This document shows, piece after piece, positions 7,622-56,916 of a DNA stretch of 64,000 nucleotides (the first letter of the stretch is position 1; each line of letters opens with the position of its first letter). The notes beneath the pieces are model-generated. The model saw nothing but the letters and a program-made list of their open reading frames with translations. It was not told the origin of the DNA and did not search any database. Made by a program: the position numbers and the translations under genes. The stretch comes from Candidatus Woesearchaeota archaeon (GTDB lineage Archaea; Nanobdellota; Nanobdellia; Pacearchaeales; GW2011-AR1), in the NCBI GenBank assembly GCA_964355135.1, contig CAYHCG010000008.1:423-64422 (forward strand), written 5' to 3'.

Positions 7622-7760
7622 ATGAAAGAAAAATTTGTTAAGATAGTAAGAAAGAATGGAGATAGCCTCGCGATCAATATCCCGAAGGAAGTGATAGATA
7701 TAATGAAGATAACTGAAGGAGATATAATCAGAGTTGAAATCGAGAAGGTTAAAGGATAAT
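7622..7760 (+). CDS. AbrB/MazE/SpoVT-type swapped-hairpin DNA-binding protein (antitoxin-like), 45 aa
   Basis: Translates MKEKFVKIVRKNGDSLAINIPKEVIDIMKITEGDIIRVEIEKVKG. Not in the ORF track because it is under 60 aa. Its stop overlaps the next gene's ATG. Confidence 0.5.
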
Positions 7761-8556
7761 GAAAAATTATGAAATCTTAAATAAATCTGACAGAAAAAGA
7801 CGGATAAAAATCCCTGAGAGACATAGTGAGCTTGCAGAGCTCCTAGGCATTTTAACAGGAGATGGTTTTATGAATTACTATCCTAAGAGACAGGCATATA
7901 TTATTGGAATTGCCGGAAACAAATTGAAAGATTTAGAATATCTAGAAAACTTTACCAGCAAATTAATTAAAAATTTATTCAATTTAAGCCCCAGATTATA
8001 TTTACATAAAAGCCAAAATACTGCAAGTTTAGTCTTTCGTTCTAAGAGCATTTTTTATTTTCTTGAAGAATGTGGTTTTCCGACTGGAAGAAAGGGAGAA
8101 ATATCAATTCCAAAATGGATCTTAGAGAATCCTGATTTCTTTAAAAAATTCATTAGAGGCGTATTTGATACAGATGGACACTTATGTTTAAAGAATAAAG
8201 AGGGTAAAAAATATCCTGTTATTGGAATAACTTCAAAAAGTAAATCTTTATTGTTTCCGATAAAAGAATTTTTAAATTCATACGGGATAACTTCTTATCT
8301 GGGGAGCCATAGGGCGGACACAAGTAATAAGAAATTTATCGTTAATAGGGTTCAGATAAGTGGTCAGAAAAATATAGGATTGTTCTTTGATCAGGTTGGG
8401 TCAAATAACCCAAGAAATTTAATGAAGTATATGGAAATGGCCCCGGGGGGAATCGAACCCTCTTACAACGAGCTTCAGTCGTTTGCATTCCCATTATGCT
8501 ACAGGGCCTCCTTGTCCTTGAAATTGAGAGAAGAGAAGACTTTTAAATGTTTTTAA
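7759..8556 (+). CDS. LAGLIDADG-family homing endonuclease (double motif). The 3' end may be read-through.
   Basis: Two motifs, LLGILTGDGFM and FIRGVFDTDGHL, both keeping the acidic residues. The last ~40 codons are antisense to a tRNA-Phe. Confidence 0.7.
   Translation: MKNYEILNKSDRKRRIKIPERHSELAELLGILTGDGFMNYYPKRQAYIIGIAGNKLKDLEYLENFTSKLIKNLFNLSPRLYLHKSQNTASLVFRSKSIFYFLEECGFPTGRKGEISIPKWILENPDFFKKFIRGVFDTDGHLCLKNKEGKKYPVIGITSKSKSLLFPIKEFLNSYGITSYLGSHRADTSNKKFIVNRVQISGQKNIGLFFDQVGSNNPRNLMKYMEMAPGGIEPSYNELQSFAFPLCYRASLSLKLREEKTFKCF
8438..8508 (-). tRNA. tRNA-Phe (GAA), no encoded CCA
   Basis: Hand-folded cloverleaf. Acceptor GGCCCTG/CGGGGCC (one G-U pair), D-stem GCAT/ATGC, anticodon stem AACGA/TCGTT, loop CTGAAGC (anticodon GAA, G37), T-loop TTCGATT. 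There is one A-C mismatch in the T-stem. A TATA-like ATTTAAAAG lies about 30 nt upstream. Confidence 0.5.
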
Positions 8557-9258: not shown

Positions 9259-10788
9259 ATGGCTGTCCAGATAAACCTTAATCCTGTTATTCCTCCACTC
9301 AAAAAACCTGAGGATAAAAAGAATGTTGATGTCAGATATGTTTTGATATCTCCTTATGTTTCTGTGCATATTTATTGGGACAAAAAAATCAGTGAGTTAG
9401 TGTACGAGCTTGAAGAGCCCCTTCTTGACGATTTTGAGAAAGAAATTCTTGAGAAACTTGAAAATGCTATGCTTGAGCTCATAAATGTTAATGTGGCTGT
9501 TGACAAAACTTTGGATGCGACCACTTCTTATATAGACCGAACAGCAAAATTGCTTATTGATGAATTGAATATTACTATTTCTGTAGAGAGTTATGATAAG
9601 ATTTTTTATTATCTTTTTAGAGACTTTATTGGATTAAACGAGATAGAGCCATTACTAAGGGATTATTTTATAGAAGATATTGAATGTAATGGTGTGGACA
9701 CTCCCGTTTTTATAATTCATAGAGTTTATAGAAATTTAAGGACAAATATAAAATACAATGATCTGGACAAACTGGCTAGTTTTGTAGAGAAACTGGCGCA
9801 ACGAACAGGAAGATATGTCTCTTATGCGCAACCATTACTGGATGGAACGCTGCCTGATGGCAGCAGAGTTAATGCAACCTTTACTAAGGATGTAAGTTCT
9901 CGAGGTCCAACCTTTACACTGAGAAAGTTTACCAAAATTCCTTGGACGCCTACACAATTGATTGCGATGAGAACACTCTCTCCGGAAATGCTAGCTTATT
10001 TCTGGATTTTACTAGAGCACAAGTCCAGTATACTCATTAGTGGAGGTACTGCCTCAGGAAAGACTACCTTGCTTAATGCCTTAGCTTTCTTTATTCCTCC
10101 TGAAGCAAGAGTTGTTTCAATAGAAGAAACGAGAGAACTTAACTTGCCTAGAGAGAATTGGTTGCCTAGTGTGGCAAGAACCTCAATAGGCGTAGGAAAA
10201 ATAGGTGAGATTGACTTGTTTGAGATATTGAAAAGCTCTTTTAGACAAACTCCGGATTATTTGATAGTTGGAGAAGTGAGAGGGAAAGAGGCATTCGTCT
10301 TATTTCAGGGAATGGCTTCCGGCCACTCTTCTTTAAGTACAATGCACGCGGACTCTGTAGATACTTTAGTAAGAAGGTTGCAAACTCCCCCTATAAGCTT
10401 ATCCCCGACACTGATAAATACCCTGGACTGTGTAGCAATAATGACTCATGCCGTGGTGAAAGGACAAGGCACGAGAAAATTAAGAGAGGTAGTAGAGATA
10501 ATTAACATTAATAATGATGGGAGCGCTTTGACTAATACTCCATTCAAATGGTCTCCTGCTCAAGACGTTTTTTATTCCAAGAACCACTTTAAAGTTTTAG
10601 AAAAACTATCTGCAAAAACAGGAATTCCTCCTGAAAAACTTAGTAAAGACCTATACGCCCGAGCGATGTTATTGTTTGAACTTTACAGAAGAAAAATATT
10701 TGGATTTTATGAGATTGGAACTATTATCAATGAATATTATAAAAACCCTGCAGAAGTATTGAAAAGGTTTAATGTAAAGAGCGGTTGA
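9259..10788 (+). CDS. type IV pilus / archaellum assembly ATPase (PilB/ArlI, VirB11-like family)
   Basis: Walker A ISGGTASGKTT, Asp box DYLIVGEVRG, His box ASGHSSLSTMHADS. The archaeal-type N-terminal domain is present. Confidence 0.85.
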   Translation: MAVQINLNPVIPPLKKPEDKKNVDVRYVLISPYVSVHIYWDKKISELVYELEEPLLDDFEKEILEKLENAMLELINVNVAVDKTLDATTSYIDRTAKLLIDELNITISVESYDKIFYYLFRDFIGLNEIEPLLRDYFIEDIECNGVDTPVFIIHRVYRNLRTNIKYNDLDKLASFVEKLAQRTGRYVSYAQPLLDGTLPDGSRVNATFTKDVSSRGPTFTLRKFTKIPWTPTQLIAMRTLSPEMLAYFWILLEHKSSILISGGTASGKTTLLNALAFFIPPEARVVSIEETRELNLPRENWLPSVARTSIGVGKIGEIDLFEILKSSFRQTPDYLIVGEVRGKEAFVLFQGMASGHSSLSTMHADSVDTLVRRLQTPPISLSPTLINTLDCVAIMTHAVVKGQGTRKLREVVEIININNDGSALTNTPFKWSPAQDVFYSKNHFKVLEKLSAKTGIPPEKLSKDLYARAMLLFELYRRKIFGFYEIGTIINEYYKNPAEVLKRFNVKSG

Positions 10789-10806: not shown

Positions 10807-10992
10807 TTGTTTGAGAAAGTAATGAAAAAAGAGGAGATTTCAGTTCTAGCCCAGCTTTTGACTGCTATGAGAGAATGCGTTGATAAACTAGAGCACGCTG
10901 CTAAGAAAAAAGACTCTGAAGAAACTACTGTTGCCAAAAATGAACTTCTTAATCTGCAGAGAAGAATGAAAGAGATGTTAAAAAATGATTGA
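10807..10992 (+). CDS. small hypothetical helical protein
   Basis: ORF between the ATPase and platform genes. Confidence 0.25.
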   Translation: MFEKVMKKEEISVLAQLLTAMRECVDKLEHAAKKKDSEETTVAKNELLNLQRRMKEMLKND

Positions 10993-12319
10993 TGAATTAA
11001 AAAAGAATATTGAGACTGAAATAGAAATCTTAAAGGAAATTTCTAATTATACTAGGGCTGTAGATTATTCTAGTGGAGAGGAAATTTCCTTGCTAAATGG
11101 GGCGATAGCATCCCTTCGAGAAGCTCTACTTATATTAAACGACTCAATCCCCCTTATCATCCAGGAAAGAGGGCCCGAGAGTGTCAAGATAGCTCAGTTG
11201 CCTCAATTACCGAAAAAGAGAGCGGTAGAAAAAAAGACTGAAGAAAAACTCGAAAAAGTGGAAGTGCAAAGAAACAATTCTGCAGTCAGAGTTTTACTAG
11301 ATAAAAAAGACAAAGAAAAATTCCTAAAAGAATTGACCATAAGCGAGGATTTTATAAAAAAGATTAGAAAGAGAAAGATCGGAAAAGAAGAGAGATTACT
11401 AGAGTTTAAGAAATCTCGCGGTTATTTAAAACTGGCAAATAAAATTTTTCTTGGACAGAGCGCTAAATGGATAAAAAAAGGATATTTTAGATCCTTAGCG
11501 GTAGAATTGAGAAAGGCCAATATTGACATTTTACTTGAAGTATATGTTGCAATGGTTTTCTTAAGTGTCCTTCTTTCTTTAGTCTCTTCCTTTATTTTAT
11601 TTTTAATCCTTATCTTTGTTGATATTAATACTACTGTGCCTTTTTTTACATTGTATAATGGAGATTTTTTCATAAGAATATTGAGAATAATCTGGATACC
11701 TATAGCAATACCTCTATTGACTTTTCTAGGATTATACTATTATCCTTCGAGCGAGAAAAAATCAATAGGTAGAAAAATAGACCAGGAGCTTCCTTTTGCA
11801 GTAATTCATATGAGCGCCATTTCGGGATCTGGGATCGCTCCTCTAGAGATCTTTAAAATAATAGGTCTTGGAAAAGAATACCCTTCCTTAAGAAAAGAGT
11901 TTAGGAAGGTTCTGAATCAGATTAATCTCTTTGGATATGATCTCATAACTGCGCTGAATAATTCTGTAAAAACAGCACCTAGTGAAAGATTATCTGAACT
12001 ATTCTCAGGATTGTCCACTAGTGTAACTTCAGGAGCAAGTTTGCAACAGTTTTTTGAGAAAAGGTCTGAATCGCTTCTTTTGAATTATAGACTAGAAAGA
12101 GAAAAATATACTCGCACAATTGAAACTTTTTTAGATATTTACATAAGTATAGTTATCGCAGCGCCCATGATTTTTATGTTGCTTATAGTTATGATTTTTA
12201 TTTCGGGCGTGGATATCAAACTTACCGCCGGACAGATAAGCTTAGTGTTTGTATTTGGAGTAGCATTATTAAATGTTGTATTCTTGATGTTCCTACAGAC
12301 AAAGCAGCCCGCATATTAA
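10985..12319 (+). CDS. type II secretion system F-domain platform protein (TadC/ArlJ-like), first half
   Basis: T2SSF-like region FAVIHMSAISGSGIAPLEIFKIIGL...ITALNNSVKTAPSERLSELFSGLSTSVTSGASLQQFF with C-terminal TM segments. Confidence 0.7.
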   Translation: MIDELKKNIETEIEILKEISNYTRAVDYSSGEEISLLNGAIASLREALLILNDSIPLIIQERGPESVKIAQLPQLPKKRAVEKKTEEKLEKVEVQRNNSAVRVLLDKKDKEKFLKELTISEDFIKKIRKRKIGKEERLLEFKKSRGYLKLANKIFLGQSAKWIKKGYFRSLAVELRKANIDILLEVYVAMVFLSVLLSLVSSFILFLILIFVDINTTVPFFTLYNGDFFIRILRIIWIPIAIPLLTFLGLYYYPSSEKKSIGRKIDQELPFAVIHMSAISGSGIAPLEIFKIIGLGKEYPSLRKEFRKVLNQINLFGYDLITALNNSVKTAPSERLSELFSGLSTSVTSGASLQQFFEKRSESLLLNYRLEREKYTRTIETFLDIYISIVIAAPMIFMLLIVMIFISGVDIKLTAGQISLVFVFGVALLNVVFLMFLQTKQPAY

Positions 12320-12322
12320 AAA

Positions 12323-13198
12323 ATGAAACTAAAAAAAATGCATTGGCTCGGAATAATCTCCGGAATTGTAATCGTCATTTTAGATTTGATCTTCTTTCTT
12401 GATAATACCAGGATGCTTTATTTTTTAATGGGTATCGCTTTTGGAATAATTGCCCTCCCATTTGTTATTGGCATGACTTTAGAAAATAAAAAAGAGCAAA
12501 AAATCAACGAAATGTTTTTGGAATTTTCCAGAAACTTGGCAGAAAGCGTGGCTACTGGAACTCCTATAAATAAAAGTATTGCAAATATGAAAAAAAAGAA
12601 CTATGGAGAACTCAATCCTTACATAGAAAAGCTCTCAAATCAAATTGAGCTTGGAGTCCCTATAAACAAGTCCTTAGAGAATTTTGCGGAAGATATCAAT
12701 AGCCCTGTAGTAAAAAGAGCGACTGCTTTGATAAGAGAAGCGGAGAAGGCAGGCGGAGAGATAGAACAAATACTTGACTCTACTGCAAAATCTGTTTCTG
12801 AAATAGAAAAACTAAAGAAAGAGAGAAAATCTGCAATTTACAGTTTAGTTGTGCAGGGATATATCATTTTCTTCATATTTATCGCTATTGTGATAGTAGT
12901 TGAATTCCAGATTTTGCCTTTGACTGTAGGAACTGGAGGATTTACTCAGTTTACAGGAGATATTAATAGCATTGATGCTGCGGCTTCAGGGGCCCAGGAA
13001 GATATGATAAGCCCTGAAGAACTAACCAAACCGTTTATATTTCTCCTTTTGACACAAGGATTTTTTGTAGGATTAGTTATTGGAAAGCTTACAGAAGGGA
13101 GTATCAAGGCAGGATTAAAACATTCTTTTATCTTGATGATGGCCGCATTTATAGTCTCTAGTGGAGCAAAGTTATTACTAACTCCTGTTAAGCCTTAG
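12323..13198 (+). CDS. type II secretion system F-domain platform protein (TadB/ArlJ-like), second half
   Basis: A second T2SSF-like domain (FSRNLAESVATGTPINKSIANM...VKRATALIREAEKAGGEIEQIL) with TM segments. Confidence 0.65.
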   Translation: MKLKKMHWLGIISGIVIVILDLIFFLDNTRMLYFLMGIAFGIIALPFVIGMTLENKKEQKINEMFLEFSRNLAESVATGTPINKSIANMKKKNYGELNPYIEKLSNQIELGVPINKSLENFAEDINSPVVKRATALIREAEKAGGEIEQILDSTAKSVSEIEKLKKERKSAIYSLVVQGYIIFFIFIAIVIVVEFQILPLTVGTGGFTQFTGDINSIDAAASGAQEDMISPEELTKPFIFLLLTQGFFVGLVIGKLTEGSIKAGLKHSFILMMAAFIVSSGAKLLLTPVKP

Positions 13199-14042
13199 CC
13201 TGATGGATTAGATAAAATATCTCATTTGGGATCGAAAATTTTTCAAAACTAAGGCCCTTTCTGAGAAGAAGACGCTCAAACCAGCCCCTCTGTGGATAAT
13301 TCATTGCCTTGCCAGAAAGTTTTTTTGTAGAAAAACTTACTAAGATATATTTTGACTCTACCGCCAGGATTATTTTCTCTGACAAAGCATGATCTTTTTT
13401 GTCTACTACATCAATTACCTTAAAAAGAATGCAGAGATCTGTTTTTGGCAGCGGGGAAGATAGTTTCCTTAAGTCAAGAGTAAAAGTTTTTCCATTAATT
13501 TTATTTTTTTTGAAAAAAGAATCTATGAGCGATAGCTCATCTTCCTTGATATCTGAAGCATAGTAGAAAACTTCGGGAGAGGCAAGAGCTAAAGGGTTTA
13601 AACCGCAGCCTAGATCCAGGATAGATTTTATTTTTAGTTCTTTTATTTTTTCTTTTATCAATGGGTAAAACGGAAGCCTCTCCGCAGTAGAAGAATGAGT
13701 TTTTAATAGCTGCATGAAATTATCTTCCTGTAGGAGTCTTGGACGATCTTTGAGGCTTTTCTGATATTGTCCTGTTAAAAATCTCAATTCTGAACGAATT
13801 TGCTTAGTGATTATTCTAAAATCTTGTTTTTTGAGATTTTTTAAGCTGATTGAGTGTTTTTTGAGATAATCGTGCAGGCAATCCTCAACTACTGCATCAG
13901 AGAGACCGCGGAGTTCTTTTTTTTCCTTAATCTCCTTACAGAGCATTCTGCTGAGTTTTTCATCTGATTTTGCAGAATCTCTGTCTAGGGAATTCTCATT
14001 CTTATTAACAGAATTCCCCATAATCAAGGCTGATTCGTCCAT
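13188..14042 (-). CDS. FmrO-family 16S rRNA (guanine1405-N7) methyltransferase homolog (ArmA/RmtB-like)
   Basis: LDLGCGLNPLAL, FKVIDVV, VSFSTKKLSGKAMNYPQRGWFERLL and IPNEIFYLIHQ align with RmtB LDIACGLNPLAL / FKLLPLL / VSFPTRSLGGRGKGM..NY..WFE / IGTELIYLIKK. Confidence 0.55.
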   Translation of the reverse strand: MDESALIMGNSVNKNENSLDRDSAKSDEKLSRMLCKEIKEKKELRGLSDAVVEDCLHDYLKKHSISLKNLKKQDFRIITKQIRSELRFLTGQYQKSLKDRPRLLQEDNFMQLLKTHSSTAERLPFYPLIKEKIKELKIKSILDLGCGLNPLALASPEVFYYASDIKEDELSLIDSFFKKNKINGKTFTLDLRKLSSPLPKTDLCILFKVIDVVDKKDHALSEKIILAVESKYILVSFSTKKLSGKAMNYPQRGWFERLLLRKGLSFEKFSIPNEIFYLIHQAKA

Positions 14043-14092
14043 GATAAGCTAATTATGAGAACTTATATAAACATAGTTATTTATTTTTGTAG

Positions 14093-14851
14093 ATGAGAAA
14101 AAGAGGGATGAGTCATATAGAAGTAATTTTGTCTTTTATGATTTTTCTTGGAGCTGTTGGATTTGCACTTTACTTTTTCAGCCCGACAAATACTTCTAAA
14201 CTTGTCGACACTTCTTTAGATTATGTAAGTAGAGAAATTTCCAACAATATAACTGTATCGGTGACTACTTATTCTGTGAAAATTAATAATAGTGATAACC
14301 AGGCTAACTCTGCGGGCTTTTTAGCGATTAACATTAGCGGAATGTGTGATAATGAAAATAATGTGGCGAGAGTTGAAAATCTCTCAGGGAGTATTTTACC
14401 TTCAAAAATAGGGCCTGGAAACAGCAAATGTAAATCCTCTAATGATCAAGTTTTGATTATAGCCAATAGCGAATGGAATGCCCCAGAGGATTTTATCTAT
14501 ATTAAAATAAGCGAGGATTTTAATGAAACGGGCGATGAAGTGACTGGAAGTCCAACACCCAATGAATATTTCTATGAAATATCCACAACTAACTCGGAAA
14601 TTGAGTTTTCAGAGAAGAGAATACTTATTTTGAATAAGTCCTATTATGAAAATTATTACGGATTAAAAGAGGACTTCAACTTGCCTGGAAGAGTTAACTT
14701 TGGATTTAGCTTTGTCTTTGCAGATAATAGCATAGTCTCTGAAAGAGAAGTGCCTAATGGATTAGATGTATATTCTAAAGTTGAAAGAGTTGAAGTTTTA
14801 AGAGAAAATGGTCAAGTGCAGTACGCTGATTTGGTAATTAAAGTATGGTAG
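14093..14851 (+). CDS. type IV pilin-like protein (class III signal peptide)
   Basis: MRKRG|MSHIEVILSFMIFLGAVGFALYFF: a Gly at the cleavage site, Glu at +5, and a hydrophobic helix. Confidence 0.55.
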   Translation: MRKRGMSHIEVILSFMIFLGAVGFALYFFSPTNTSKLVDTSLDYVSREISNNITVSVTTYSVKINNSDNQANSAGFLAINISGMCDNENNVARVENLSGSILPSKIGPGNSKCKSSNDQVLIIANSEWNAPEDFIYIKISEDFNETGDEVTGSPTPNEYFYEISTTNSEIEFSEKRILILNKSYYENYYGLKEDFNLPGRVNFGFSFVFADNSIVSEREVPNGLDVYSKVERVEVLRENGQVQYADLVIKVW

Positions 14852-15300
14852 CAAAAAAAGGATTTATGAGAATTATGGAAGCGACTATTGCAGTCTTAAT
14901 TATTTTAGGAGTGCTTTTTGTCATCGCCTCCCAACGGGAAGTTAGAAGTAATCAAGATCTAACTGAAATTCTAAGAGCGTTGCTTGATGAAATTGCAAAA
15001 GATCAAGAGTTAAGACAACAAGTTGTAGAATATAACTTGAGTGTGGCAAGAAATGAAACTCCTAACCGAGAGATATTGGGAAATCTGAGCGTATTTTTAG
15101 AAGAAAAAATAAAAAATCCTGCATTTAATCATTCAATAAGCATTTGCAAAGCAAACGAAACCTGCCCATTGCAAGTATCCTTTCCTGTTGAGGACCCTCA
15201 AGACATCTATGCAGCTGAAAGAATAATAACGACAACCCTTAGCCAGGGAGGTTCGCAAGAATTAAAAAAAATAAAATTATTTTTATGGAGAAGAGTATAA
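14845..15300 (+). CDS. type IV pilin-like protein (class III signal peptide)
   Basis: MVAKKG|FMRIMEATIAVLIILGVLFVIA. Confidence 0.5.
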   Translation: MVAKKGFMRIMEATIAVLIILGVLFVIASQREVRSNQDLTEILRALLDEIAKDQELRQQVVEYNLSVARNETPNREILGNLSVFLEEKIKNPAFNHSISICKANETCPLQVSFPVEDPQDIYAAERIITTTLSQGGSQELKKIKLFLWRRV

Positions 15301-15352: not shown

Positions 15353-17665
15353 ATGAAAAAGAGTGGTGTGGTTTTCTTATTATTAGCAATTGTTTTTATT
15401 TTTGGTTTAATGGGGGAGGCTCATGCTGCATGTACATGTTCGGATAGTGACAACAGCGGGACAGACCAAAGTGGGACAGATTATATTGCATCTCTTATGG
15501 TTAGTGGAAATGCAAGATATAAGTCTAGTCCAACTGCTGCATGGAATAATAACTATGATAGGTGCAAAGATAGTACTCATATTTATGAAAGACAATGTGC
15601 AAGCAGTAGTGCGTGTACAAGTATATCTGTAGGAAGTCCCCAATGTCAGAGTTTAACTCCATTTTGTTTAGAGGTGCCTGACGCAGGAGATAAATGTGTT
15701 ATGTGTACTTCTGATAATCAATGTTCTGGATCGCCCCATAACTTGGGCTCTTTATATGGGTGCGGTAGTTCAAATTTTTGTGTTCAGGAATGGTCTGATG
15801 TAAGAGTCGGAGTTTTAAGGGCAGGAACAAGTACTACGATAAAGGAAGCTACAGTAACTTTTAATCAGGACCCATACACTCAAGAAGAGAGCACTGGAAA
15901 TACTGGGATGACTCCTACCATGAGTGTAAGAGTCGGATCGAACTATGTAAGAATTGAAAAAGAAGGATATGCCGATTATACAAATACAAATTATCAGGTA
16001 TCCGCTTATCCTAGTACAACAGATTTGATTTTTCATCTTTCAATATGCACGAATGAATGTTCTCCTCGAAATAGTATAATGTGTACTACTGATGGGTCTC
16101 CTTATCATGATCAGTGTCTTAAAAGATTTGGGTGTTGGGTCTGGGTGGAAGATTTGCTATGTTCAACTGGAACAACTTGTGTAGGAAATGCATGTACAAC
16201 ATGTGATAACGATCCTAATTTGTGTACTTCTGGAACAAGATGTTCAGGAAATGGAGTTCAGACTTGCAGTGTGGATAACGATCGGGATTCCTGTAGAGAA
16301 TGGAGTTCTACAGTACCTTGCAATGCTGATAATTTATGTTCAGCTGGAGTTTGTGTCCCTTCCGAATCATGTGTAGATAGTGATGATGCCAATAGGGGCA
16401 GTCCAGCAAATGGAGATGTTACAACTACTCAAGCAACCAGTGCAACTAAGACGGGCTCTCCTACCATGACTGACGAATGCTATCAAAGCGCCCCGAATCC
16501 TGATACATTGTATGAAGCTTATTGTGCTAGCACTTTAGCAGATCCTGGACGAACAATTGTAAGTTGTCCAACAGATAAGCCTGTTTGTTCAAATGGGGCC
16601 TGTGTAAGTGCCTGCACTCCGAGTCTTGAAATATGCGATGGCAAAGACAATGATTGTGACGGAAGTGTAGATGAAAATGATGCCAATATTTGCGGGGATT
16701 GGATGTGTTTTCATCCTGGACAGTCGGATGCGAAATGTGTTTGTAATGATGATAATGATTGCAATGATAGTAATGTGTGTACTATAAATGATAGATGTAC
16801 TAATCCTGCGAGTAGCTCGGCCCTTTGTGCTTATACAAATAATGATGGGGCTTCTTGCACTATAAATTCAAATCCTGGAACTTGCCAGAGCGGAACATGT
16901 ACTCCTCCTAATTGTGGTAATGGAGTTATTAATTCTGGGGAGCAGTGTGATGGGGATAATAATTTAGATGGAAAAACGTGTTCGACCGTCCCGGGAGGAT
17001 ACAATGGGGGAGATTTAAAATGCAAAGCGGATTGCACTTTCAATACTGATGATTGTAGTATTGGGGGGGGAGAAGACTGTACAGATGATGATGGAGATAC
17101 ATATTCTGCAATATCAGCGGATTGTGAAACGGGAAATGATTGTGATGATACGAACGAGACTATAAATCCTGGGGCAATAGAGGTATGTGATGATGTGGAC
17201 AATGATTGCGATGTTCCTACAGAAGTAGATGAAGGAGGAGTTTGCACACAACCAGAACAATGCGCATTATATCTTCCTGGAACTGCATGTTCAGAACTGC
17301 TGCAGGGAGATTGTAGTGCGTGCGGAGGATCTGTTGGGCCGAACGATCCTTCTGGAGATGGTTTAACAAATAAATACTGCTATTGGGAGAGTGGCGTGTG
17401 TAAGTTAGGAGGAACTGACGCAGATGGAAATATCTGCAGTGTAGAAACATTATCTTATCAATGTGTTGGGGATCAAACTTCTACAGACATAACGTATAGG
17501 AATAGTTGTGAACCTGCTTGTAGCGGTATTGAAGGCTGCGTTAAAGCAAACGTGCCATGCCCTCAAGTAGTTGATTTGCCTTTCTTTGGAATGTTTGGAT
17601 TTGGACTTAGCTTAATTATTATTGCAGGAATATATGGTTATTTAATAATGAAGAGAAAGGAGTAA
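15353..17665 (+). CDS. large Cys-rich surface protein with EGF/laminin-like modules and MopE-type CDGxDNDCDG putative metal-binding repeats, plus a C-terminal TM anchor
   Basis: Signal peptide MKKSGVVFLLLAIVFIFGLMGEAHA. More than 80 Cys. EICDGKDNDCDGSVDEND and VCDDVDNDCD repeats. C-terminal TM FGFGLSLIIIAGIYGYLIMKRKE. Confidence 0.6.
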   Translation: MKKSGVVFLLLAIVFIFGLMGEAHAACTCSDSDNSGTDQSGTDYIASLMVSGNARYKSSPTAAWNNNYDRCKDSTHIYERQCASSSACTSISVGSPQCQSLTPFCLEVPDAGDKCVMCTSDNQCSGSPHNLGSLYGCGSSNFCVQEWSDVRVGVLRAGTSTTIKEATVTFNQDPYTQEESTGNTGMTPTMSVRVGSNYVRIEKEGYADYTNTNYQVSAYPSTTDLIFHLSICTNECSPRNSIMCTTDGSPYHDQCLKRFGCWVWVEDLLCSTGTTCVGNACTTCDNDPNLCTSGTRCSGNGVQTCSVDNDRDSCREWSSTVPCNADNLCSAGVCVPSESCVDSDDANRGSPANGDVTTTQATSATKTGSPTMTDECYQSAPNPDTLYEAYCASTLADPGRTIVSCPTDKPVCSNGACVSACTPSLEICDGKDNDCDGSVDENDANICGDWMCFHPGQSDAKCVCNDDNDCNDSNVCTINDRCTNPASSSALCAYTNNDGASCTINSNPGTCQSGTCTPPNCGNGVINSGEQCDGDNNLDGKTCSTVPGGYNGGDLKCKADCTFNTDDCSIGGGEDCTDDDGDTYSAISADCETGNDCDDTNETINPGAIEVCDDVDNDCDVPTEVDEGGVCTQPEQCALYLPGTACSELLQGDCSACGGSVGPNDPSGDGLTNKYCYWESGVCKLGGTDADGNICSVETLSYQCVGDQTSTDITYRNSCEPACSGIEGCVKANVPCPQVVDLPFFGMFGFGLSLIIIAGIYGYLIMKRKE

Positions 17666-20473: not shown

Positions 20474-21112
20474 ATGCTAAAAATACTAAAGAACTTTTCA
20501 AAAAGAGTGCTCAGTGGCTTGTTCAAGAGCAGGAAAACTTTGAAAATAGGATTTTATGGACCTCCCAATGCAGGGAAAACTAGCTTGGCGAACAGAATAT
20601 GTAAGGATTGGACAGGAGAAGAATTAGGGACGGTGAGTAATGTCCCTCACGAGACAAGGAAAGTACAAGTCAAAGAAGAAGTTAAGGTCAAATACAAAGG
20701 CAAAACACTGACTTTCAAGATGATAGATACGCCTGGGATAGCTACAAAAATAGACTATGAAGATTTTTTGAAATTCGGACTAAACAAAAGTACTGCAAAA
20801 AAGAGAGCAAAAGAAGCCACCCAAGGGATTATAGAGTCTATTCAGTGGTTGGATGATGTTGATGCAGTTATAATAGTTTTAGACGCTGCAGAGAACCCTT
20901 ATTCTCAGGTGAACATTACCATCATAGGCAATTTAGTTGCCCGAAAGATCCCCATATTGATAGCAGCTAATAAAATAGATTTGAAGAAGGCAGATATAAA
21001 GAAAATCGAGTCTACTTTTCCAGAATATGATGTAGTTGGAATATCTGCAAAGGATGGACTAAATATGGATGAATTTTATGAGTCACTATTTAAATTAACC
21101 AAAGGAATATGA
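20474..21112 (+). CDS. EngB/YihA-like small GTPase
   Basis: G1 GPPNAGKTS, G2 HETR, G3 DTPG, G4 NKID, G5 ISAKDG. Confidence 0.7.
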   Translation: MLKILKNFSKRVLSGLFKSRKTLKIGFYGPPNAGKTSLANRICKDWTGEELGTVSNVPHETRKVQVKEEVKVKYKGKTLTFKMIDTPGIATKIDYEDFLKFGLNKSTAKKRAKEATQGIIESIQWLDDVDAVIIVLDAAENPYSQVNITIIGNLVARKIPILIAANKIDLKKADIKKIESTFPEYDVVGISAKDGLNMDEFYESLFKLTKGI

Positions 21113-21510
21113 AAATGAAAAAAATATTAAAGAAACTAAGTGGGCTAAGTCTTCATGTGATACCCTTTTCTGAAGTAAAGAATTTATCTATATCAGAGAG
21201 AGTTAAAAAAATATTAAATCTTGTGCTTGGGAATAAGATAGTCATTTTGCATGGCAGATTGAGACCTGAAGAGGAGGCTAGGCTAATAGAAGATACTATG
21301 GCTCTTGTGGACCATGTTAAGGACTTTAGAGGCATAGAACTTGCTGTAATAGAGCCAAATCTTAAAGAAGAGAATGTCTTTGTTAAAATGAGGTATGGTT
21401 TGGCAAAGAAACTTATTGGAGACAATAGTGCCTTGACTATCATTGGACCCGCCTCAGTTATAAAAGAGATAAAGAGAGATCCTAGAAAGCTAGAGTTGTT
21501 GCTTAGTTAA
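21109..21510 (+). CDS. DUF2073-like archaeal protein (GTPase-associated)
   Basis: ~130 aa. Position and size fit the GTPase-DUF2073-Zn-ribbon triad. The family call is from memory. Confidence 0.35.
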   Translation: MKMKKILKKLSGLSLHVIPFSEVKNLSISERVKKILNLVLGNKIVILHGRLRPEEEARLIEDTMALVDHVKDFRGIELAVIEPNLKEENVFVKMRYGLAKKLIGDNSALTIIGPASVIKEIKRDPRKLELLLS

Positions 21511-21581
21511 AAACGTTTAACCGAATAAGTAGTGTTTTAGAGTTAGCAAATATTTATTAATCTTTCACGACACCAAGTTTA

Positions 21582-21974
21582 ATGCCCTATAAGTGTGTTC
21601 ATTGCTCGAAAATTTTTGATGATGGTTCTACTCAAGTGCTAACTGGATGCGATAACTGCCAGCATAAATTCTTTTTCTATATTAGAAAAGATCAGCTAGA
21701 GAAGATAAAGGAAAGTGAGAAAGAAAATGTTGAACTCACTAATGTAGAGAAAAAACAAATAGAGAAGGACATCAGAGATATTGCGGGTATTGAAGATGAA
21801 GAAACCCCAGTCTATCTTGATTTTGAAAGTATAAAGATCATCAAACCTGGAAAGTATGTTGTCGATTTAGGAAACTTATTTTCAGTCAATAAACCTAGGG
21901 TTTATAAAATTGAAGACGGGAAGTATGTTGTCGATTTGTCTTCCTTAAGGGGACATCATAAGAGTACTATTTAA
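21582..21974 (+). CDS. Zn-ribbon protein (DUF2072-like)
   Basis: N-terminal CVHCSKIF...CDNCQHK zinc ribbon. Third member of the triad. Confidence 0.4.
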   Translation: MPYKCVHCSKIFDDGSTQVLTGCDNCQHKFFFYIRKDQLEKIKESEKENVELTNVEKKQIEKDIRDIAGIEDEETPVYLDFESIKIIKPGKYVVDLGNLFSVNKPRVYKIEDGKYVVDLSSLRGHHKSTI

Positions 21975-24242: not shown

Positions 24243-25244
24243 TCAAATTAAATAAGCGATTGCAAGGCCGATAAACGCCCCTACAGTTATGAAAGGCATT
24301 GCTGGATAGAATTTCCCTTTCTCGGAAATATAAAACAGAAACGCAAGAGCTATAGTGGAAAATAGAGACACTATTAAGGCTTGAAGCAATCCCCAATGAT
24401 TGAACACTACTCCGGCCAATATTAATGGAAATACGACATCGCCTCCACCTAAAATTGCTAAACTAACCTTTACTTTCTTGTTTTTATTCTTTGAGAGTTT
24501 TGCTTTTGCCAATTGATCTCTTTCCTTCTGGCCTAAATAAGGGACAAAGAAACCTGTGAAGATCTTTACTTTTTCGATCTGGTATTTTGCCATCTTCTGC
24601 ATAAACCCTGCATGCCAGACTGCATACATATCGTATAATGAAATTAAAATTAGAATTGCGGATATTGCAATAATACTCCATGCACTTGCCGAAAGACCAA
24701 AATATTCATATAATTTCCCAAAATACTTGCCGCTTGATAATGCCTTATCTGTAAAATTGAATAGAACCACGAAAATTGAAGCGATACCTGGATAGATTAA
24801 TAACTCCGAAATATTGTGGACGATAATGTTTCTTTTGAAAATTTTAAAAATAGCTATTGGGAGGGCGATTATCAAGGCTATTAAAGGAGAATAAGGAAAG
24901 TTAAGCAATAAAGAATTGAATGTTATTCCAAGCGCTAAAGTAACTACGATAAAAAACCATGTTCTGAGTATAGTCTCCGCTTTAAATTTCATTAATGTCA
25001 GCATTAAGAAAACTGCTATGGCTATTGCGATAACTATGGAAACTAATGTTCCCTGAGGCGTAACGTCCTCTGGAGGATCCATCCCATAAGGAAGATTATA
25101 GGAAGTTACATTGGTTATGGTTCCATTCTCATCAGCAACCTGACTTATTTGAGGCGAATACTGACTTATAACAAACAATCCGATTAATTGTGTAATGAAA
25201 AACATGCCCAAGAGAAGTAATGTTATTTTTATTGCATGCTTCAT
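24243..25244 (-). CDS. presenilin / signal-peptide-peptidase family (A22) intramembrane aspartyl protease homolog
   Basis: Multi-TM protein with YD (ISLYDMYAV), GxGD (LGGGDVVFPLILA) and PAL-like (YPAMPF) motifs in the correct order. Confidence 0.6.
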   Translation of the reverse strand: MKHAIKITLLLLGMFFITQLIGLFVISQYSPQISQVADENGTITNVTSYNLPYGMDPPEDVTPQGTLVSIVIAIAIAVFLMLTLMKFKAETILRTWFFIVVTLALGITFNSLLLNFPYSPLIALIIALPIAIFKIFKRNIIVHNISELLIYPGIASIFVVLFNFTDKALSSGKYFGKLYEYFGLSASAWSIIAISAILILISLYDMYAVWHAGFMQKMAKYQIEKVKIFTGFFVPYLGQKERDQLAKAKLSKNKNKKVKVSLAILGGGDVVFPLILAGVVFNHWGLLQALIVSLFSTIALAFLFYISEKGKFYPAMPFITVGAFIGLAIAYLI

Positions 25245-45750: not shown

Positions 45751-46002
45751 TTATTTCTTGTAAATTCTTTCTCTATGGCCGATTTCAATAACGTAGATAA
45801 CTAACTGCATATCTTTAATATCTAAAATAATCCTATAATCGTCGACTCTTGCCCTATAATAATTACTGTTATACAAGCGTTTTACAAATTTATGAGGCCT
45901 TATTTTTATTCTTTCTATAGCAGAACCAATCCTATTTCTGATTTCTTGAGGTAGTTGGATTAGTTGATTTTTTGCCTCATTTGTAAAAATAATCTCATAC
46001 AT
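45751..46002 (-). CDS. RelE/ParE-family toxin
   Basis: MYEIIFTNEAKNQLIQLPQEIRNRIGSAIERI...YRARVDDYRIILDIKDMQLVIYVIEIGHRERIY. Overlaps the upstream antitoxin by 8 nt. Confidence 0.6.
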   Translation of the reverse strand: MYEIIFTNEAKNQLIQLPQEIRNRIGSAIERIKIRPHKFVKRLYNSNYYRARVDDYRIILDIKDMQLVIYVIEIGHRERIYKK

Positions 46003-46219
46003 CGACGTTCAACTCCTTTTTAACGTCTTCCCATTTGTGAATTCTGCCTTTCTTTATGTCCTCTTCGGATTTTGCAATACTCTTTTTAGTTTCTTCACTC
46101 AATTCTTCTCTGTCCCCTATTAAATCCCAAATTAAGTCTTCATAGCTTTCTTTCTCAGAAAGTTTAAGATTTTTAAGCTTGCTTACTAATTCCTTGCTTA
46201 TTTGTATTGTCGTATCCAT
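45995..46219 (-). CDS. antitoxin partner of the RelE-like toxin
   Basis: 74-aa acidic protein immediately upstream, translationally coupled. Confidence 0.5.
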   Translation of the reverse strand: MDTTIQISKELVSKLKNLKLSEKESYEDLIWDLIGDREELSEETKKSIAKSEEDIKKGRIHKWEDVKKELNVDV

Positions 46220-47497: not shown

Positions 47498-47725
47498 TTA
47501 ATTTTCTAATTGGATATTTTTTACTTTAACGCTTTGAAGGAAGTCTTTAGGGATTTGCTTGCTTACGTCAAGGATTTCGATGCCCAAGGTTTTTCCTTCC
47601 TTGTCTAAGTCTACGTTTATATTTTTATTTAGAGAGATTGTTTCACTTACTTCTCCGGCTTTTATTTCCTTAAAGTATATGTATGCAGCATCTGCTTCTT
47701 TATCTATTTCAATTTTCATTTCCAC
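47498..47725 (-). CDS. DUF2283-family antitoxin-like protein
   Basis: MKIEIDKEADAAYIYF......GKTLGIEILDVS matches the DUF2283 pattern. Confidence 0.5.
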   Translation of the reverse strand: MEMKIEIDKEADAAYIYFKEIKAGEVSETISLNKNINVDLDKEGKTLGIEILDVSKQIPKDFLQSVKVKNIQLEN

Positions 47726-47928
47726 ATAAGAGTTATTATCTTTATATAATTATCTTTTTCCTCGTAAATTACTTTGAGAGTTTTATTTGATATTTTCTTG
47801 TAAATCTCGACTTTCCCTTCTTTCCTAACAGAATACTCTGAAAAGTCAACCGCTTCTTGAACTTGTGAAAAGGAAATATTTCTCTCTTTCATCCTCTTTT
47901 TTGCATGATCTGAAAGAATAATTTTCAT
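47716..47928 (-). CDS. DUF4258-family toxin-like protein
   Basis: MKIILSDHAKKRMKERNISFSQVQEAV. Overlaps the DUF2283 gene by 10 nt. Confidence 0.5.
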   Translation of the reverse strand: MKIILSDHAKKRMKERNISFSQVQEAVDFSEYSVRKEGKVEIYKKISNKTLKVIYEEKDNYIKIITLMWK

Positions 47929-55995: not shown

Positions 55996-56050
55996 GTTGT
56001 GTATTATTAAGAGTTATTTTTAAATGTTGTTGTAGTGTTGTTTAGGAAAA

Positions 56051-56311
56051 TTACATTAAGTCTTCTTCAGAGACAACTACAAAATCGCCAATAGCTATTA
56101 TTGAATTGTAAGGAACTAGAGCTTCCCCTTTATTTGAGGATTCTAAGGAGAGGTTTTTTGTATATGGAGTTGAATCTTTAAGAACTAACTGGATTAATTC
56201 TCCTGTTCTTGTTTCAAAAGTAATGTCTTTGACGAAACCTAATCTCTTGCCTTCCTTGGTAACCACGAGCTTTCCCATGACATCTCTTAGAGGCTTTTTT
56301 TCTAGTACCAT
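56051..56311 (-). CDS. PRC-barrel domain protein
   Basis: RDVMGKLVVTKEGKRLGFVKDITFETRTGELIQLVL. Confidence 0.5.
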   Translation of the reverse strand: MVLEKKPLRDVMGKLVVTKEGKRLGFVKDITFETRTGELIQLVLKDSTPYTKNLSLESSNKGEALVPYNSIIAIGDFVVVSEEDLM

Positions 56312-56379
56312 CAGTTCTGTAAATATGTATGATATTTAAACTTTTCTTTGGTGGAGTTGTGTATTGAGGAGGAAAAGAA

Positions 56380-56916
56380 CTTTAAATTGAAGAATTATTC
56401 AACTTTCTTCTTACCCCCGCCCCCCATGGTTTCGTGTGGAGATAGGATATTATTATAGTGAGACTGAGATATTTTTCTTCTTCTAATTTTCATTTATAAA
56501 TATTTATATTATATAATATAGATATAATAACTATTTTGTTGATATTGATAGATTAGTTCTTTTAATATGAGATATAGATAGTTGTAACGATATAATTGAT
56601 TGTTATGATTAATTCATATTAATAGACCATATTATTGATTAAGAGAAGTATTTTAACAGAGTAGTACGGTTAATTAAATTAAAGTGAATGATTTGATAGT
56701 TATACTTTCATATAATAGTTCTGTCTAATTATAATTTATTTTTATGTAGTAGATATCTATTTCTCCAGTGGAAATGCTGGTGTGGGTGCGTGATTTGATT
56801 TTTTCTTTTTATGATCATTTTTCGTCGATCTTTCCCCATTAACACAAGAAATAAGGGTTAAAGAATAGATAAGTTTAAATTGGAGGGATAGTAAATATAT
56901 TTGAGGTGAAAAAGAG
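56380..56916. promoter_or_regulatory. chromosomal replication origin (oriC): two inverted ORB elements flanking an AT-rich DNA-unwinding element
   Basis: ORB TCTCCAGTGGAAATGCTGGTGTGGGTG at 56762..56790. Inverted degenerate ORB ACCCCCGCCCCCCATGGTTTCGTGTGGAGA at 56413..56446. About 300 bp of more than 85% A+T between them. Directly upstream of orc1/cdc6-polD. Confidence 0.6.

What the first reader, a model, noticed from the sequence alone, without database searches (positions are those of the whole stretch)
13188..14042. Aminoglycoside-resistance-type 16S rRNA m7G1405 methyltransferase (FmrO/ArmA/RmtB family) homolog in an archaeon, antisense within the pilus locus
Motif-by-motif similarity to RmtB/ArmA is strong: LDLGCGLNPLAL, VSFSTKKLSGKAMNYPQRGWFE, IPNEIFYLIH. 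This family is normally confined to aminoglycoside-producing actinomycetes and to plasmid-borne resistance genes in Proteobacteria. An archaeal copy is unexpected and suggests horizontal acquisition or a different substrate. It is encoded on the minus strand between pilus platform and pilin genes.
Basis: partly seen in the sequence, partly recalled or inferred. Interest (0 to 1): 0.55.

Follow-up and report, generated by a model that had tools for sequence, protein, structure and literature searches.

The report
Archaeal ArmA/Rmt-type rRNA methyltransferase in pilus locus
This DPANN archaeon carries a real, intact relative of the bacterial ribosome methyltransferases that cause aminoglycoside resistance, but it is an old, vertically inherited gene of the whole lineage (first noticed in 2010), oddly locked backwards inside a pilus operon where it shares one TATA box with the pilin gene.

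Summary
ORF 13188-14042 (-) encodes a 284-aa FmrO/Arm-family protein: Pfam PF07091 scores 66 bits against a cut-off of 27, and the AlphaFold model (pLDDT 95) matches Sgm, RmtF, RmtB, RmtC and ArmA over its full length, N-terminal domain included.

The gene is not a recent horizontal acquisition. It belongs to a large archaeal clade (over 140 GTDB species, all listed ones DPANN-labelled bar one probable mislabel). A Nanoarchaeum ortholog (NEQ545) was reported in 2010 and listed as a Nanoarchaeota signature gene in 2013.

Most residues shown to be critical in RmtC are kept: SAM binding, K204, Y60, K236, R241, M245, K47 and R50. The archaeal proteins share their own changes: K20 to E, Y21 to L, H54 to R, an N1 insertion and a shorter loop. 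The protein scores far below NCBI's Rmt equivalog cut-off (108 vs 250 bits).

Two things appear to be new.
- The gene is always the single inverted gene between the platform and pilin genes. A roughly 50-nt spacer holds one central TATA box 21-22 nt from both start codons.
- A sister subfamily lies in a Pelota-FmrO-TrmB-PheRS operon, which ties the family to the ribosome.

The most likely function is intrinsic m7G methylation of the organism's own 16S rRNA at the G1405 equivalent. This is untested.

The parts
13188..14042 (-). CDS of the FmrO/Arm-family SAM-dependent methyltransferase (284 aa). Residues 33-284 form the conserved two-domain core.
   Evidence: ORF; Pfam, NCBIfam and PDB hits; AF2 model pLDDT 95.1 and Foldseek TM 0.83 to Sgm.
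13947..14042 (-). 32-codon hydrophilic N-terminal extension (MDESALIMGNSVNKNENSLDRDSAKSDEKLSR), private to this genome.
   Evidence: Homologs start at the M33 equivalent. The extension is not shared by the longer relatives checked. The promoter geometry points to M1 as the start. No TATA-like box was seen by eye upstream of M33.
14043..14092 (.). 50-nt divergent spacer, inferred to be a shared bidirectional archaeal promoter. Both mRNAs are inferred to be leaderless.
   Evidence: The spacer is 48-51 nt in about 43 of 73 homologous loci, with a mode of 50. Position-specific conservation is limited to the central box and its flanks.
14064..14071 (.). Palindromic TATA box TTATATAA, 21 nt from the methyltransferase ATG (14042) and 21 nt from the pilin ATG (14093).
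   Evidence: Sequence. All 66 spacers of 30-120 nt carry a TATA motif, starting 21-22 nt from the pilin ATG and, in most loci, ending 19-22 nt from the methyltransferase ATG.
13188..13198 (.). 11-nt convergent overlap between the 3' ends of the methyltransferase gene and the second platform gene.
   Evidence: ORF coordinates. In homologous loci the two 3' ends typically abut or overlap, with a median HSP gap of about 17 nt.
14093..14851 (+). Pilin-like gene A (252 aa). Its N-terminus is MRKRG|MSHIEVILSF..., a class III signal-peptide-like motif with Glu at +5.
   Evidence: ORF. The N-terminal motif is conserved in more than 70 loci. There is no Pfam or NCBIfam family match, so the 'pilin' label rests on the N-terminus and the gene context.
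14845..15300 (+). Pilin-like gene B (151 aa), N-terminus MVAKKG|FMRIME...
   Evidence: ORF. It co-occurs with the block in 65 of 80 loci.
12323..13198 (+). Platform protein, C-terminal half of FlaJ/ArlJ type (T2SSF domain).
   Evidence: Pfam T2SSF 64.7 bits. NCBIfam ArlJ/FlaJ positions 265-543.
10985..12319 (+). Platform protein, N-terminal half of FlaJ/ArlJ type (T2SSF domain).
   Evidence: Pfam T2SSF 55.1 bits. NCBIfam ArlJ/FlaJ positions 21-248.
9259..10788 (+). FlaI/PilB-type assembly ATPase of the type IV filament locus.
   Evidence: Pfam T2SSE 100 bits. NCBIfam FlaI-type 384 bits.

Best explanation
The gene encodes an intrinsic, chromosomally inherited small-subunit rRNA methyltransferase of the Arm/FmrO family.

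Inferred mechanism. The basic N-terminal helical domain docks on the conserved h24/h27/h44/h45 surface of the organism's own mature 30S subunit. The C-terminal Rossmann domain binds SAM, and a loop wedges into helix 44. The guanine equivalent to E. coli G1405 is flipped out and methylated at N7. This would be a constitutive 'housekeeping' mark of the decoding centre in this DPANN lineage. Insensitivity to 4,6-disubstituted deoxystreptamine aminoglycosides would be a by-product, not an acquired resistance trait.

Inferred expression. The gene is transcribed as a leaderless mRNA from a single TATA box that it shares, back to back, with the first pilin gene. The arrangement most likely arose when the gene inserted in reverse into an ancestral ATPase-platform-pilin operon. 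It then persisted because the spacer became the pilin promoter and no harmless breakpoint was left.

Shown: homology, fold, residue conservation, clade-wide distribution, synteny and promoter geometry.
Inferred: the substrate, the modified position, leaderless bidirectional transcription and the insertion history.
For: Family and fold:
- Pfam FmrO scores above its cut-off and NCBIfam Rmt_gen aligns end to end.
- A profile of the archaeal clade hits only m7G1405 methyltransferases in the PDB (RmtB 2.6e-23, ArmA, RmtF, Sgm, RmtC).
- The AF2 model has pLDDT 95.1 and pTM 0.90. Its 16 best Foldseek hits are all m7G1405 enzymes over the full length (TM 0.83 to Sgm). The next class of hits matches the Rossmann domain only.

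Residues. I mapped the residues that are experimentally critical in RmtC (PMC10288597) through alignment A2. The RmtC sequence was verified against PDB 8GHU. Frequencies are from 46 clade members.
- S107 46/46; R111 46/46; D134 46/46; D160 as D/E 46/46.
- K204 45/46; Y60 as F/Y 46/46; K47 44/46; R50 45/46.
- R241 as K/R 44/46; M245 43/46; K236 as K/R 35/46.
- The core has a net charge of +15.

Vertical inheritance:
- 142 GTDB species hits; the 80 best are DPANN-labelled apart from one probable mislabel.
- The gene has native GC content.
- The pilus-linked genes form one clade in the tree.

Independent link to the ribosome. Six of six sampled long-contig members of the sister archaeal subfamily lie in an overlapping Pelota-FmrO operon followed by TrmB and PheRS. 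That subfamily shares the archaeal signature residues.

The pilus link is not obligatory:
- Homologs exist outside pilus loci.
- Pilus loci with the same pilin N-terminus exist without the methyltransferase.

Promoter.

Target site. G1405 lies inside the universally conserved 1392-1406 segment of SSU rRNA. This is established knowledge and was not tested here.
Against: - No rRNA modification data exist for any member, and no 16S rRNA gene is in the window or in any held locus.
- The protein scores 108 bits against the 250-bit equivalog cut-off of NCBIfam's Rmt model.
- Three N1 docking residues that are critical in RmtC are changed throughout the archaeal proteins: K20 to E, Y21 to L and H54 to R. 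RmtF, a proven m7G1405 enzyme, also lacks K20 and Y21.
- N1 carries a 10-residue insertion, and the h44-distorting loop is 2 residues shorter.
- The near-perfect retention inside a pilus locus (34 of 34 and 73-76 of 80 loci) is not explained by an rRNA function. It is only rationalised as hitch-hiking.
- Husain et al. 2010 also left open whether NEQ545 has the orthodox function.
Confidence: 0.6

Rival explanations
1. Same family and fold, but retargeted. The archaeal enzyme methylates a different nucleotide of SSU rRNA, or another RNA, because its docking domain has diverged.
For: - Archaeal-specific changes sit at RmtC positions that dock on h45: K20 to E, Y21 to L, H54 to R.
- N1 has an insertion, N2 is shorter, and loop 237-246 is 2 residues shorter.
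- The score is far below the Rmt equivalog cut-off.
- Husain et al. 2010 considered the function of NEQ545 unclear.
Against: - The residues that touch the flipped guanine and helix 44 are kept: K204, Y60, K236, R241, M245.
- K47 and R50 of the docking helix are also kept.
- RmtF, a proven G1405 enzyme, also has K-N-L at positions 19-21.
- The rRNA surface contacted is among the most conserved in the ribosome (PMC10288597).
Confidence: 0.2
2. A pilus-system enzyme. The methyltransferase acts on a component of the type IV filament, for example by N-methylating the mature pilin N-terminus. Archaeal prepilin peptidases are not known to have the N-methyltransferase activity of bacterial PilD (my own knowledge).
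For: - The gene is placed invariantly between the platform and pilin genes and shares a TATA box with the pilin gene. This holds across proteins only 40-63% identical.
- The pilins have a bacterial-type G|xxxxE motif with Glu at +5.
- No prepilin peptidase gene is in the window.
Against: - RNA-contacting and guanine-contacting residues of the rRNA enzymes are conserved.
- The sister subfamily carries the same signature residues but sits in a Pelota/PheRS operon, with none of the called neighbouring genes matching a pilus-system Pfam family.
- About six pilus loci with an unchanged pilin N-terminus lack the gene.
- There is no similarity to any protein N-methyltransferase. All the best structural hits that extend beyond the Rossmann domain are rRNA enzymes.
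Confidence: 0.07
3. A recently acquired aminoglycoside-resistance gene, transferred horizontally from bacteria.
For: The closest characterised relatives are plasmid-borne ArmA, RmtB and RmtF, at 24-29% identity.
Against: - GC content equals that of the surroundings.
- No mobile-element genes are adjacent.
- More than 140 GTDB species carry orthologs at 36-63% identity, in the same chromosomal position and with the same promoter geometry.
- The gene was described as a Nanoarchaeota signature gene in 2013.
- Any inter-domain transfer must predate the diversification of this DPANN lineage.
Confidence: 0.02
4. An effector directed at the host. The episymbiont delivers the enzyme through the filament or contact apparatus to methylate host ribosomes.
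For: Only the co-location and co-transcription with a surface-filament locus in a lineage of presumed episymbionts.
Against: - No signal peptide or secretion motif was seen in the sequence (by eye).
- Type IV filament systems of this kind are not known to export folded cytoplasmic enzymes (my own knowledge).
- The sister subfamily is embedded among housekeeping translation genes.
Confidence: 0.03

Closest known systems
Acquired 16S rRNA (guanine1405-N7) methyltransferases ArmA, RmtB and RmtF (Arm/FmrO family, Pfam PF07091; PDB 3FZG, 3FRH, 6PI9)
   Same: - Same two-domain architecture: a helical N1/N2 domain plus a class I Rossmann domain.
- Same length class (about 250 aa).
- Same SAM-binding motifs: HSSTxER, DxGCGxNP and the acidic residue after beta-2.
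- Same FK(L/V) lysine, SF(P/S)TK..SG..M loop and NE..Y C-terminal motif.
- These are the best sequence matches among solved structures.
   Different: - Only 24-29% identity.
- K-E-L replaces K-K-Y at the N1 loop; RmtF has K-N-L.
- Arg replaces the near-universal His54.
- Asp occupies the Thr207/Pro position.
- N1 has a 10-residue insertion, and the h44 loop is 2 residues shorter.
- The gene is chromosomal, vertically inherited and archaeal, not on mobile elements.
- The presumed substrate is an archaeal 30S subunit.
RmtC bound to the 30S subunit (PDB 8GHU; Srinivas et al. 2023, PMC10288597)
   Same: Equivalents of the experimentally essential residues are present: K47, R50, Y60, S107, D160, K204, R211 (as K), K236, R241 (as K) and M245.
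   Different: - RmtC has a much longer N2 subdomain.
- K20, Y21 and H54 are not conserved in the archaeal proteins.
- Structural match is lower (TM 0.65-0.70) than to Sgm, RmtF or RmtB.
Producer self-resistance enzymes Sgm, FmrO and Kgm (PDB 3LCU)
   Same: - Best full-length structural match (TM 0.83).
- These are also intrinsic, chromosomally encoded enzymes.
- Equivalents of Sgm R108, D156 and D182 are conserved.
   Different: - Sequence similarity is weaker than to RmtB or ArmA (66 vs 86 bits with the clade profile).
- The producer enzymes sit in antibiotic biosynthesis clusters, whereas this gene sits in a pilus locus.
- There is no aminoglycoside biosynthesis context here.
NEQ545 of Nanoarchaeum equitans (Husain et al. 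2010, PMC2896518) and its Nst1 ortholog (Podar et al. 2013, PMC3655853)
   Same: These are archaeal (DPANN) Arm-family orthologs. They are described as having conserved C-terminal motifs and a diverged helical N-terminal domain, and as being a signature gene of Nanoarchaeota. They are functionally untested, as is this gene.
   Different: The NEQ545 sequence and its gene neighbourhood could not be retrieved here. Whether it belongs to the pilus-linked subfamily, the Pelota-linked subfamily or neither is unknown. The papers do not mention any pilus or Pelota linkage.

Membership tests
Arm/FmrO family (Pfam PF07091), homology | Score above the curated Pfam gathering cut-off | tested here: met
   66.2 bits against 27, E=4e-18. 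All 120 closest homologs listed also carry PF07091.
Arm/FmrO family, architecture | N-terminal helical (N1/N2) domain fused to a C-terminal class I Rossmann methyltransferase domain | tested here: met
   AF2 model pLDDT 95.1 with helices 2-103 followed by a beta/alpha Rossmann domain. Foldseek full-length matches: Sgm TM 0.83, RmtF 0.82, RmtB 0.78. NCBIfam alignment covers model positions 4-254 of 254.
Arm/FmrO family, cofactor site | SAM-binding residues (Sgm R108, D156, D182; RmtC S107, D160; motif I DxGCGxNP) | tested here: met
   R122, D164, D190, S118 and D143-G-C-G-x-N-P are present in the query. They are invariant or nearly so in 46 clade members.
m7G1405 methyltransferases, target-base and h44 residues | RmtC K204, aromatic Y60, K236, R241, M245, R211 | tested here: met
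   Query K208, Y93, K240, K245, M247 and K215. Clade frequencies: K 45/46; F/Y 46/46; K/R 35/46; K/R 44/46; M 43/46; K 27/46.
m7G1405 methyltransferases, 30S docking residues of N1 | RmtC K20, Y21, R39, K47, R50, H54 | tested here: inconclusive
   K47 (as K80), R50 (as R83) and R39 (as K62) are kept. K20 is E43, Y21 is L44 and H54 is R87, in both archaeal subfamilies. RmtF also lacks K20 and Y21, so the first two changes lie within known family variation. H54 to Arg does not.
Rmt equivalog (NCBIfam NF000466: same function as RmtA-H) | Score above the curated equivalog cut-off | tested here: not met
   107.8 bits against 250. The individual RmtB-H models score 33-51 bits against 500-550.
m7G1405 methyltransferases, activity | N7 methylation of G1405 in mature 30S subunits, with resistance to 4,6-DOS aminoglycosides | not testable with these tools
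   No rRNA, modification or phenotype data. No 16S rRNA gene is in the window or in the held loci.
Acquired (mobile) resistance determinant | Association with plasmids, transposons or integrons; patchy distribution; foreign base composition | tested here: not met
   Conserved chromosomal position in 110 of 115 loci that carry a full-length homolog. Native GC content. No mobile-element genes nearby.
Component of the archaeal type IV filament system | Always present with the system and absent without it | tested here: not met
   About six pilus loci lack the gene. Sister and outlier homologs lie in Pelota/PheRS or other contexts.

The most novel reading that the evidence does not exclude
Ribosomes of Nanobdellota (Woese-, Pace- and Nanoarchaeota-type DPANN) carry a lineage-wide intrinsic m7G mark at the decoding-centre G1405 position. 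In one large clade its synthesis is hard-wired to pilin expression through a single shared TATA box. The state of the decoding centre, and with it aminoglycoside insensitivity, would then be transcriptionally coupled to the cell's attachment apparatus. A corollary is that this archaeal lineage, which Husain et al. placed nearer the 'pathogen-type' than the 'producer-type' enzymes, could be close to the long-sought natural reservoir of ArmA/Rmt-like genes.
Probability: 0.12. Interest if true: 0.75.

Novelty: new variant of a known kind. Interest (0 to 1): 0.45.

Why it matters
- **Origins of resistance.** m7G1405 methyltransferases are known only as antibiotic-resistance or self-resistance factors, and the origin of the acquired ones is unresolved. 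A vertically inherited, phylum-wide archaeal branch in two conserved housekeeping-type contexts would be a case of the family acting as a native ribosome-modification enzyme. It would also add a new modified position to archaeal rRNA.
- **Cultivation.** It predicts that these mostly uncultivated DPANN archaea are intrinsically insensitive to kanamycin- and gentamicin-type drugs, which bears on enrichment strategies.
- **Enzyme mechanism.** The archaeal proteins offer natural variants (H54R, K20E, a shorter h44 loop) of residues held to be essential in RmtC.
- **Gene regulation.** The single-TATA, 50-nt, doubly leaderless divergent promoter is a clean natural model of bidirectional archaeal transcription initiation. 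It also illustrates how an inserted gene can become fixed within an operon.

Tried and rejected
1. I first concluded that the true start was M33 (gene 13188-13946), because homologs are about 255 aa and align from residue 34 onward. I reversed this after finding the conserved 50-nt spacer with a central TATA box, which fits only M1 at 14042.
2. I looked for shared N-terminal extensions in the longer relatives P0003, P0007, P0014, P0018, P0031 and P0041. None resembles the extension here.
3. I searched the window and all held loci for a 16S rRNA 3' end, to inspect the G1405 region. None was found.
4. The pilin N-methyltransferase hypothesis was considered seriously and downgraded.
5. The first pilin alignment (24 sequences) was too divergent for the metagenome scan. 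I repeated the scan with 10 closer sequences, which biases that sample towards closer relatives.
6. tblastn found no Pelota homolog in the window.
7. The outlier loci L069, L081 and L083 show no common context.
8. The sigma-70 promoter and intrinsic-terminator scan of 13000-14300 gave nothing above shuffled expectation, and it is not relevant to an archaeon.
9. Literature searches for FmrO plus DPANN, and for pilus plus DPANN plus methyltransferase, returned nothing relevant.
10. The NJ tree is distance-based, without support values, and rooted on four bacterial enzymes. It cannot show the direction of any ancient inter-domain transfer.
Full report
**1. The observation**

The ORF at 13188..14042 on the minus strand is real.

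- Pfam assigns it to FmrO (PF07091): E=4e-18, 66.2 bits against a gathering cut-off of 27.
- NCBIfam's general Rmt model aligns residues 35-280 to model positions 4-254 of 254. The score is only 107.8 bits against an equivalog cut-off of 250.
- The only solved structures matched by sequence are m7G1405 methyltransferases: RmtB, ArmA, RmtF, Sgm and RmtC.
- tblastn against plasmids aligns ArmA over 97% of the conserved core at about 29% identity.
- An AlphaFold2 model of the core, built on a 46-sequence alignment, is very confident (pLDDT 95.1, pTM 0.90).
- The 16 best Foldseek hits in the PDB are all m7G1405 enzymes over the full length: Sgm TM 0.83, RmtF 0.82, RmtB 0.78. The next hits (Hen1 and others) cover only the Rossmann domain.

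It is not met, so the family assignment stands.

**2. Organism and locus**

The window is archaeal. It encodes proteasome alpha and beta subunits, SecY with a Sec61-type plug, TrmB regulators, an archaeal CCA-adding enzyme, OapB/OapC, aCPSF1/FttA, Rad50/Mre11, Orc1/Cdc6 and PolD DP1/DP2. GC content is about 35% and is uniform across the gene.

The neighbours on the plus strand are:
- a FlaI-type ATPase (9259-10788);
- a split FlaJ/T2SSF platform (10985-12319 and 12323-13198);
- beyond the methyltransferase gene, two genes whose products begin with class-III-signal-peptide-like sequences, MRKRG|MSHIEV... and MVAKKG|FMRIME... (14093-15300);
- large surface proteins after those.

'Antisense within a pilus locus' is therefore correct. 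The pilin label rests on N-terminal motifs and context only, because no family model matches these proteins.

**3. Not a one-off and not a recent transfer**

- The word-indexed search returned 717 homologs. The best 120 are 50-71% identical, about 255 aa long and all carry PF07091. Wherever a label names a taxon, it is Nanoarchaeota or Pacearchaeota.
- The exhaustive search of 1.84 billion representatives found 1,155 clusters at E<=1e-3 and 124 at E<=1e-30.
- A scan of GTDB species representatives found 142 genomes with a relative. The 80 best are labelled Woesearchaeota, Pacearchaeota, Nanoarchaeota, Nanoarchaeia, Parvarchaeota/Parvarchaeum or simply 'archaeon'. One carries a Methanosarcinales label, probably a mislabel.
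- The literature already knows the archaeal branch. Husain et al. 2010 named NEQ545 of Nanoarchaeum equitans 'the first archaeal ortholog' of the Arm family and left its function open (PMC2896518). Podar et al. 2013 listed it among 15 signature genes of Nanoarchaeota (PMC3655853).

Any inter-domain transfer must be ancient.

**4. Does it still look like a G1405 enzyme?**

I took the experimentally critical residues of RmtC from the 30S-RmtC cryo-EM and MIC study (PMC10288597). I verified the RmtC sequence against PDB 8GHU. I then aligned RmtC, ArmA, RmtB and RmtF (taken from annotated plasmids) with the archaeal proteins.

Conserved in the query and in 46 clade members:
- S107 and R111: 46/46 each.
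- D134: 46/46. D160: D/E 46/46.
- K204, which contacts N7 of the flipped guanine: 45/46.
- Y60, aromatic: 46/46.
- K236: K/R 35/46.
- R241: K/R 44/46.
- M245, which inserts into the h44 minor groove: 43/46.
- Docking residues K47: 44/46, and R50: 45/46.

The core has a net charge of +15.

Changed throughout the archaeal proteins:
- K20 to Glu.
- Y21 to Leu. RmtF has K-N-L at positions 19-21.
- His54, near-universal in bacteria, to Arg (40/46).
- Thr207 or Pro to Asp.
- A 10-residue insertion in N1, and a 2-residue deletion in the h44-distorting loop.

The catalytic and h44-handling apparatus is intact. The part of N1 that touches h45 has a lineage-specific solution.

**5. The unexpected part: genomic anatomy**

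In the 80 GTDB loci the order is pilB<- pilA<- MT-> <-F2 <-F1 <-ATPase in essentially every locus with enough flank.
- F2 is present in 73 of 80 loci and pilA in 76 of 80. Most exceptions are truncated contigs.
- Genes outside the block are not conserved.
- The methyltransferase gene is always the only inverted gene.
- Its 3' end abuts or overlaps that of the platform gene (11 nt here).

The spacer between its start codon and the pilin start codon is 48-51 nt in about 43 of 73 loci, with a mode of 50.
- All 66 spacers of 30-120 nt contain a TATA box (consensus A-TTTATATA).
- The box starts 21-22 nt from the pilin ATG and, in most loci, ends 19-22 nt from the methyltransferase ATG.

In the window, TTATATAA (14064-14071) lies exactly 21 nt from both ATGs, but only if the methyltransferase starts at M1 (14042). 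This overturned my earlier inference of an M33 start. The 32-residue hydrophilic extension is private to this genome.

With the TATA centre about 25 nt from each ATG, both mRNAs are inferred to be leaderless and to start from one shared, bidirectional archaeal promoter. This follows from established archaeal promoter geometry and was not measured.

**6. Is the pilus link functional?**

I tested it from both sides.

- *From the pilin side.* A metagenome scan with a pilin alignment gave 52 loci. All 34 with enough upstream sequence and a pilin at least 31% identical carry the inverted methyltransferase. About six, almost all with the most divergent pilins (L123, L126, L129, L133, L135, L136), have the platform gene running directly into the pilin gene with no methyltransferase. 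A relaxed search also finds none there, and their pilins keep the KKG|xSHIE...ILSF N-terminus. In L136 the junction sequence shows a GAGG box a few bases before the pilin ATG, read by eye, which suggests an ancestral single operon.
- *From the methyltransferase side.* The pilus-linked genes form one clade in an NJ tree (156 of 255 terminals). L081, L083, L084, L085 and about 95 cluster representatives fall outside it.

The outside group is also labelled Woese-, Pace-, Nanoarchaeota or Nanobdellota. It shares the archaeal signature: K-E-L, Arg54 in 55 of 58, Asp207 and an N1 insertion.

In six of six long-contig members sampled, the outside group lies in an overlapping operon Pelota -> FmrO-like -> TrmB -> PheRS alpha/beta; in one of them (L143) a dCTP-deaminase gene lies between TrmB and PheRS. 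Pelota is the ribosome-rescue factor that occupies the A site. This is independent context evidence that the archaeal family works on the ribosome.

The simplest history is as follows. A housekeeping rRNA methyltransferase gene was inserted backwards into an ATPase-platform-pilin operon in the ancestor of a large subclade. The new spacer became the pilin promoter. The arrangement was then frozen because no breakpoint is harmless. A regulatory coupling of the two genes remains possible and is unexplained.

**7. Verdict**

- Homology to the Arm/FmrO family is certain.
- Equivalence of function to RmtA-H is plausible but untested. I put own-rRNA m7G at the G1405 equivalent at about 0.6.
- Retargeting within RNA: about 0.2.
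- A pilus-related substrate: about 0.07.
- Recent HGT resistance and host-directed effector: a few percent each.

The gene itself is a documented, though obscure, archaeal signature gene.

Three things appear to be new relative to the searchable literature:
- the breadth of the clade;
- its shared residue signature;
- the two conserved contexts, especially the single-TATA 50-nt divergent promoter shared with the pilin gene.

I rate it a new variant of a known kind, of moderate interest.

Noticed in passing
window 20474-21974: A GTPase gene followed by OapB and OapC (origin-associated protein families) lies directly downstream of the pilus block. The GTPase travels with the block in 16 of 80 related loci, although the 6-kb flank limits detection.
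   Followed up: partly
window 55996-56916: A 0.9-kb AT-rich intergenic gap lies immediately upstream of orc1/cdc6 (56917-58128) and PolD DP1/DP2 (58132-63092). It is a candidate replication origin. Only short, weak direct and inverted repeats were found, with no clear ORB-like array.
   Followed up: partly
window 45751-46219 and 47498-47928: The 45.6-48.9 kb stretch lacks long ORFs and is packed with small ones. These include two overlapping pairs that look like toxin-antitoxin modules (a RelE/ParE-like 83-aa protein with a 74-aa partner, and a 70-aa plus 75-aa pair). This was judged by eye only.
   Followed up: no
window 7759-8556 and 8438-8508: A 265-aa ORF with a LAGLIDADG_3 homing-endonuclease-like domain overlaps the tRNA-Phe gene on the opposite strand.
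   Followed up: no
window 15353-17665: A 770-aa cysteine-rich predicted surface protein with a Sec-type signal peptide, MopE-type metal-binding motifs and a C-terminal transmembrane anchor. Local GC is about 0.40 against 0.35 elsewhere. It is poorly conserved in related pilus loci (8 of 80), unlike the PKD-domain protein that follows it (37 of 80).
   Followed up: partly
window 10985-13198: The filament platform protein is split into two genes that correspond to the N-terminal and C-terminal halves of ArlJ/FlaJ. The split is conserved across the related loci.
   Followed up: partly
L138-L143 (sister-subfamily loci), e.g. L139:5964-7870: The operon Pelota -> FmrO-like methyltransferase (13-25 nt overlap) -> TrmB regulator -> PheRS alpha/beta is conserved in six of six unrelated DPANN contigs sampled (with a dCTP-deaminase gene inserted before PheRS in L143). 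I found no report of this association in the searchable literature.
   Followed up: partly
window 24243-25244: A presenilin/signal-peptide-peptidase-type intramembrane aspartyl protease (PSH-like). No A24-type prepilin peptidase was detected among ORFs of at least 120 aa in the window.
   Followed up: no
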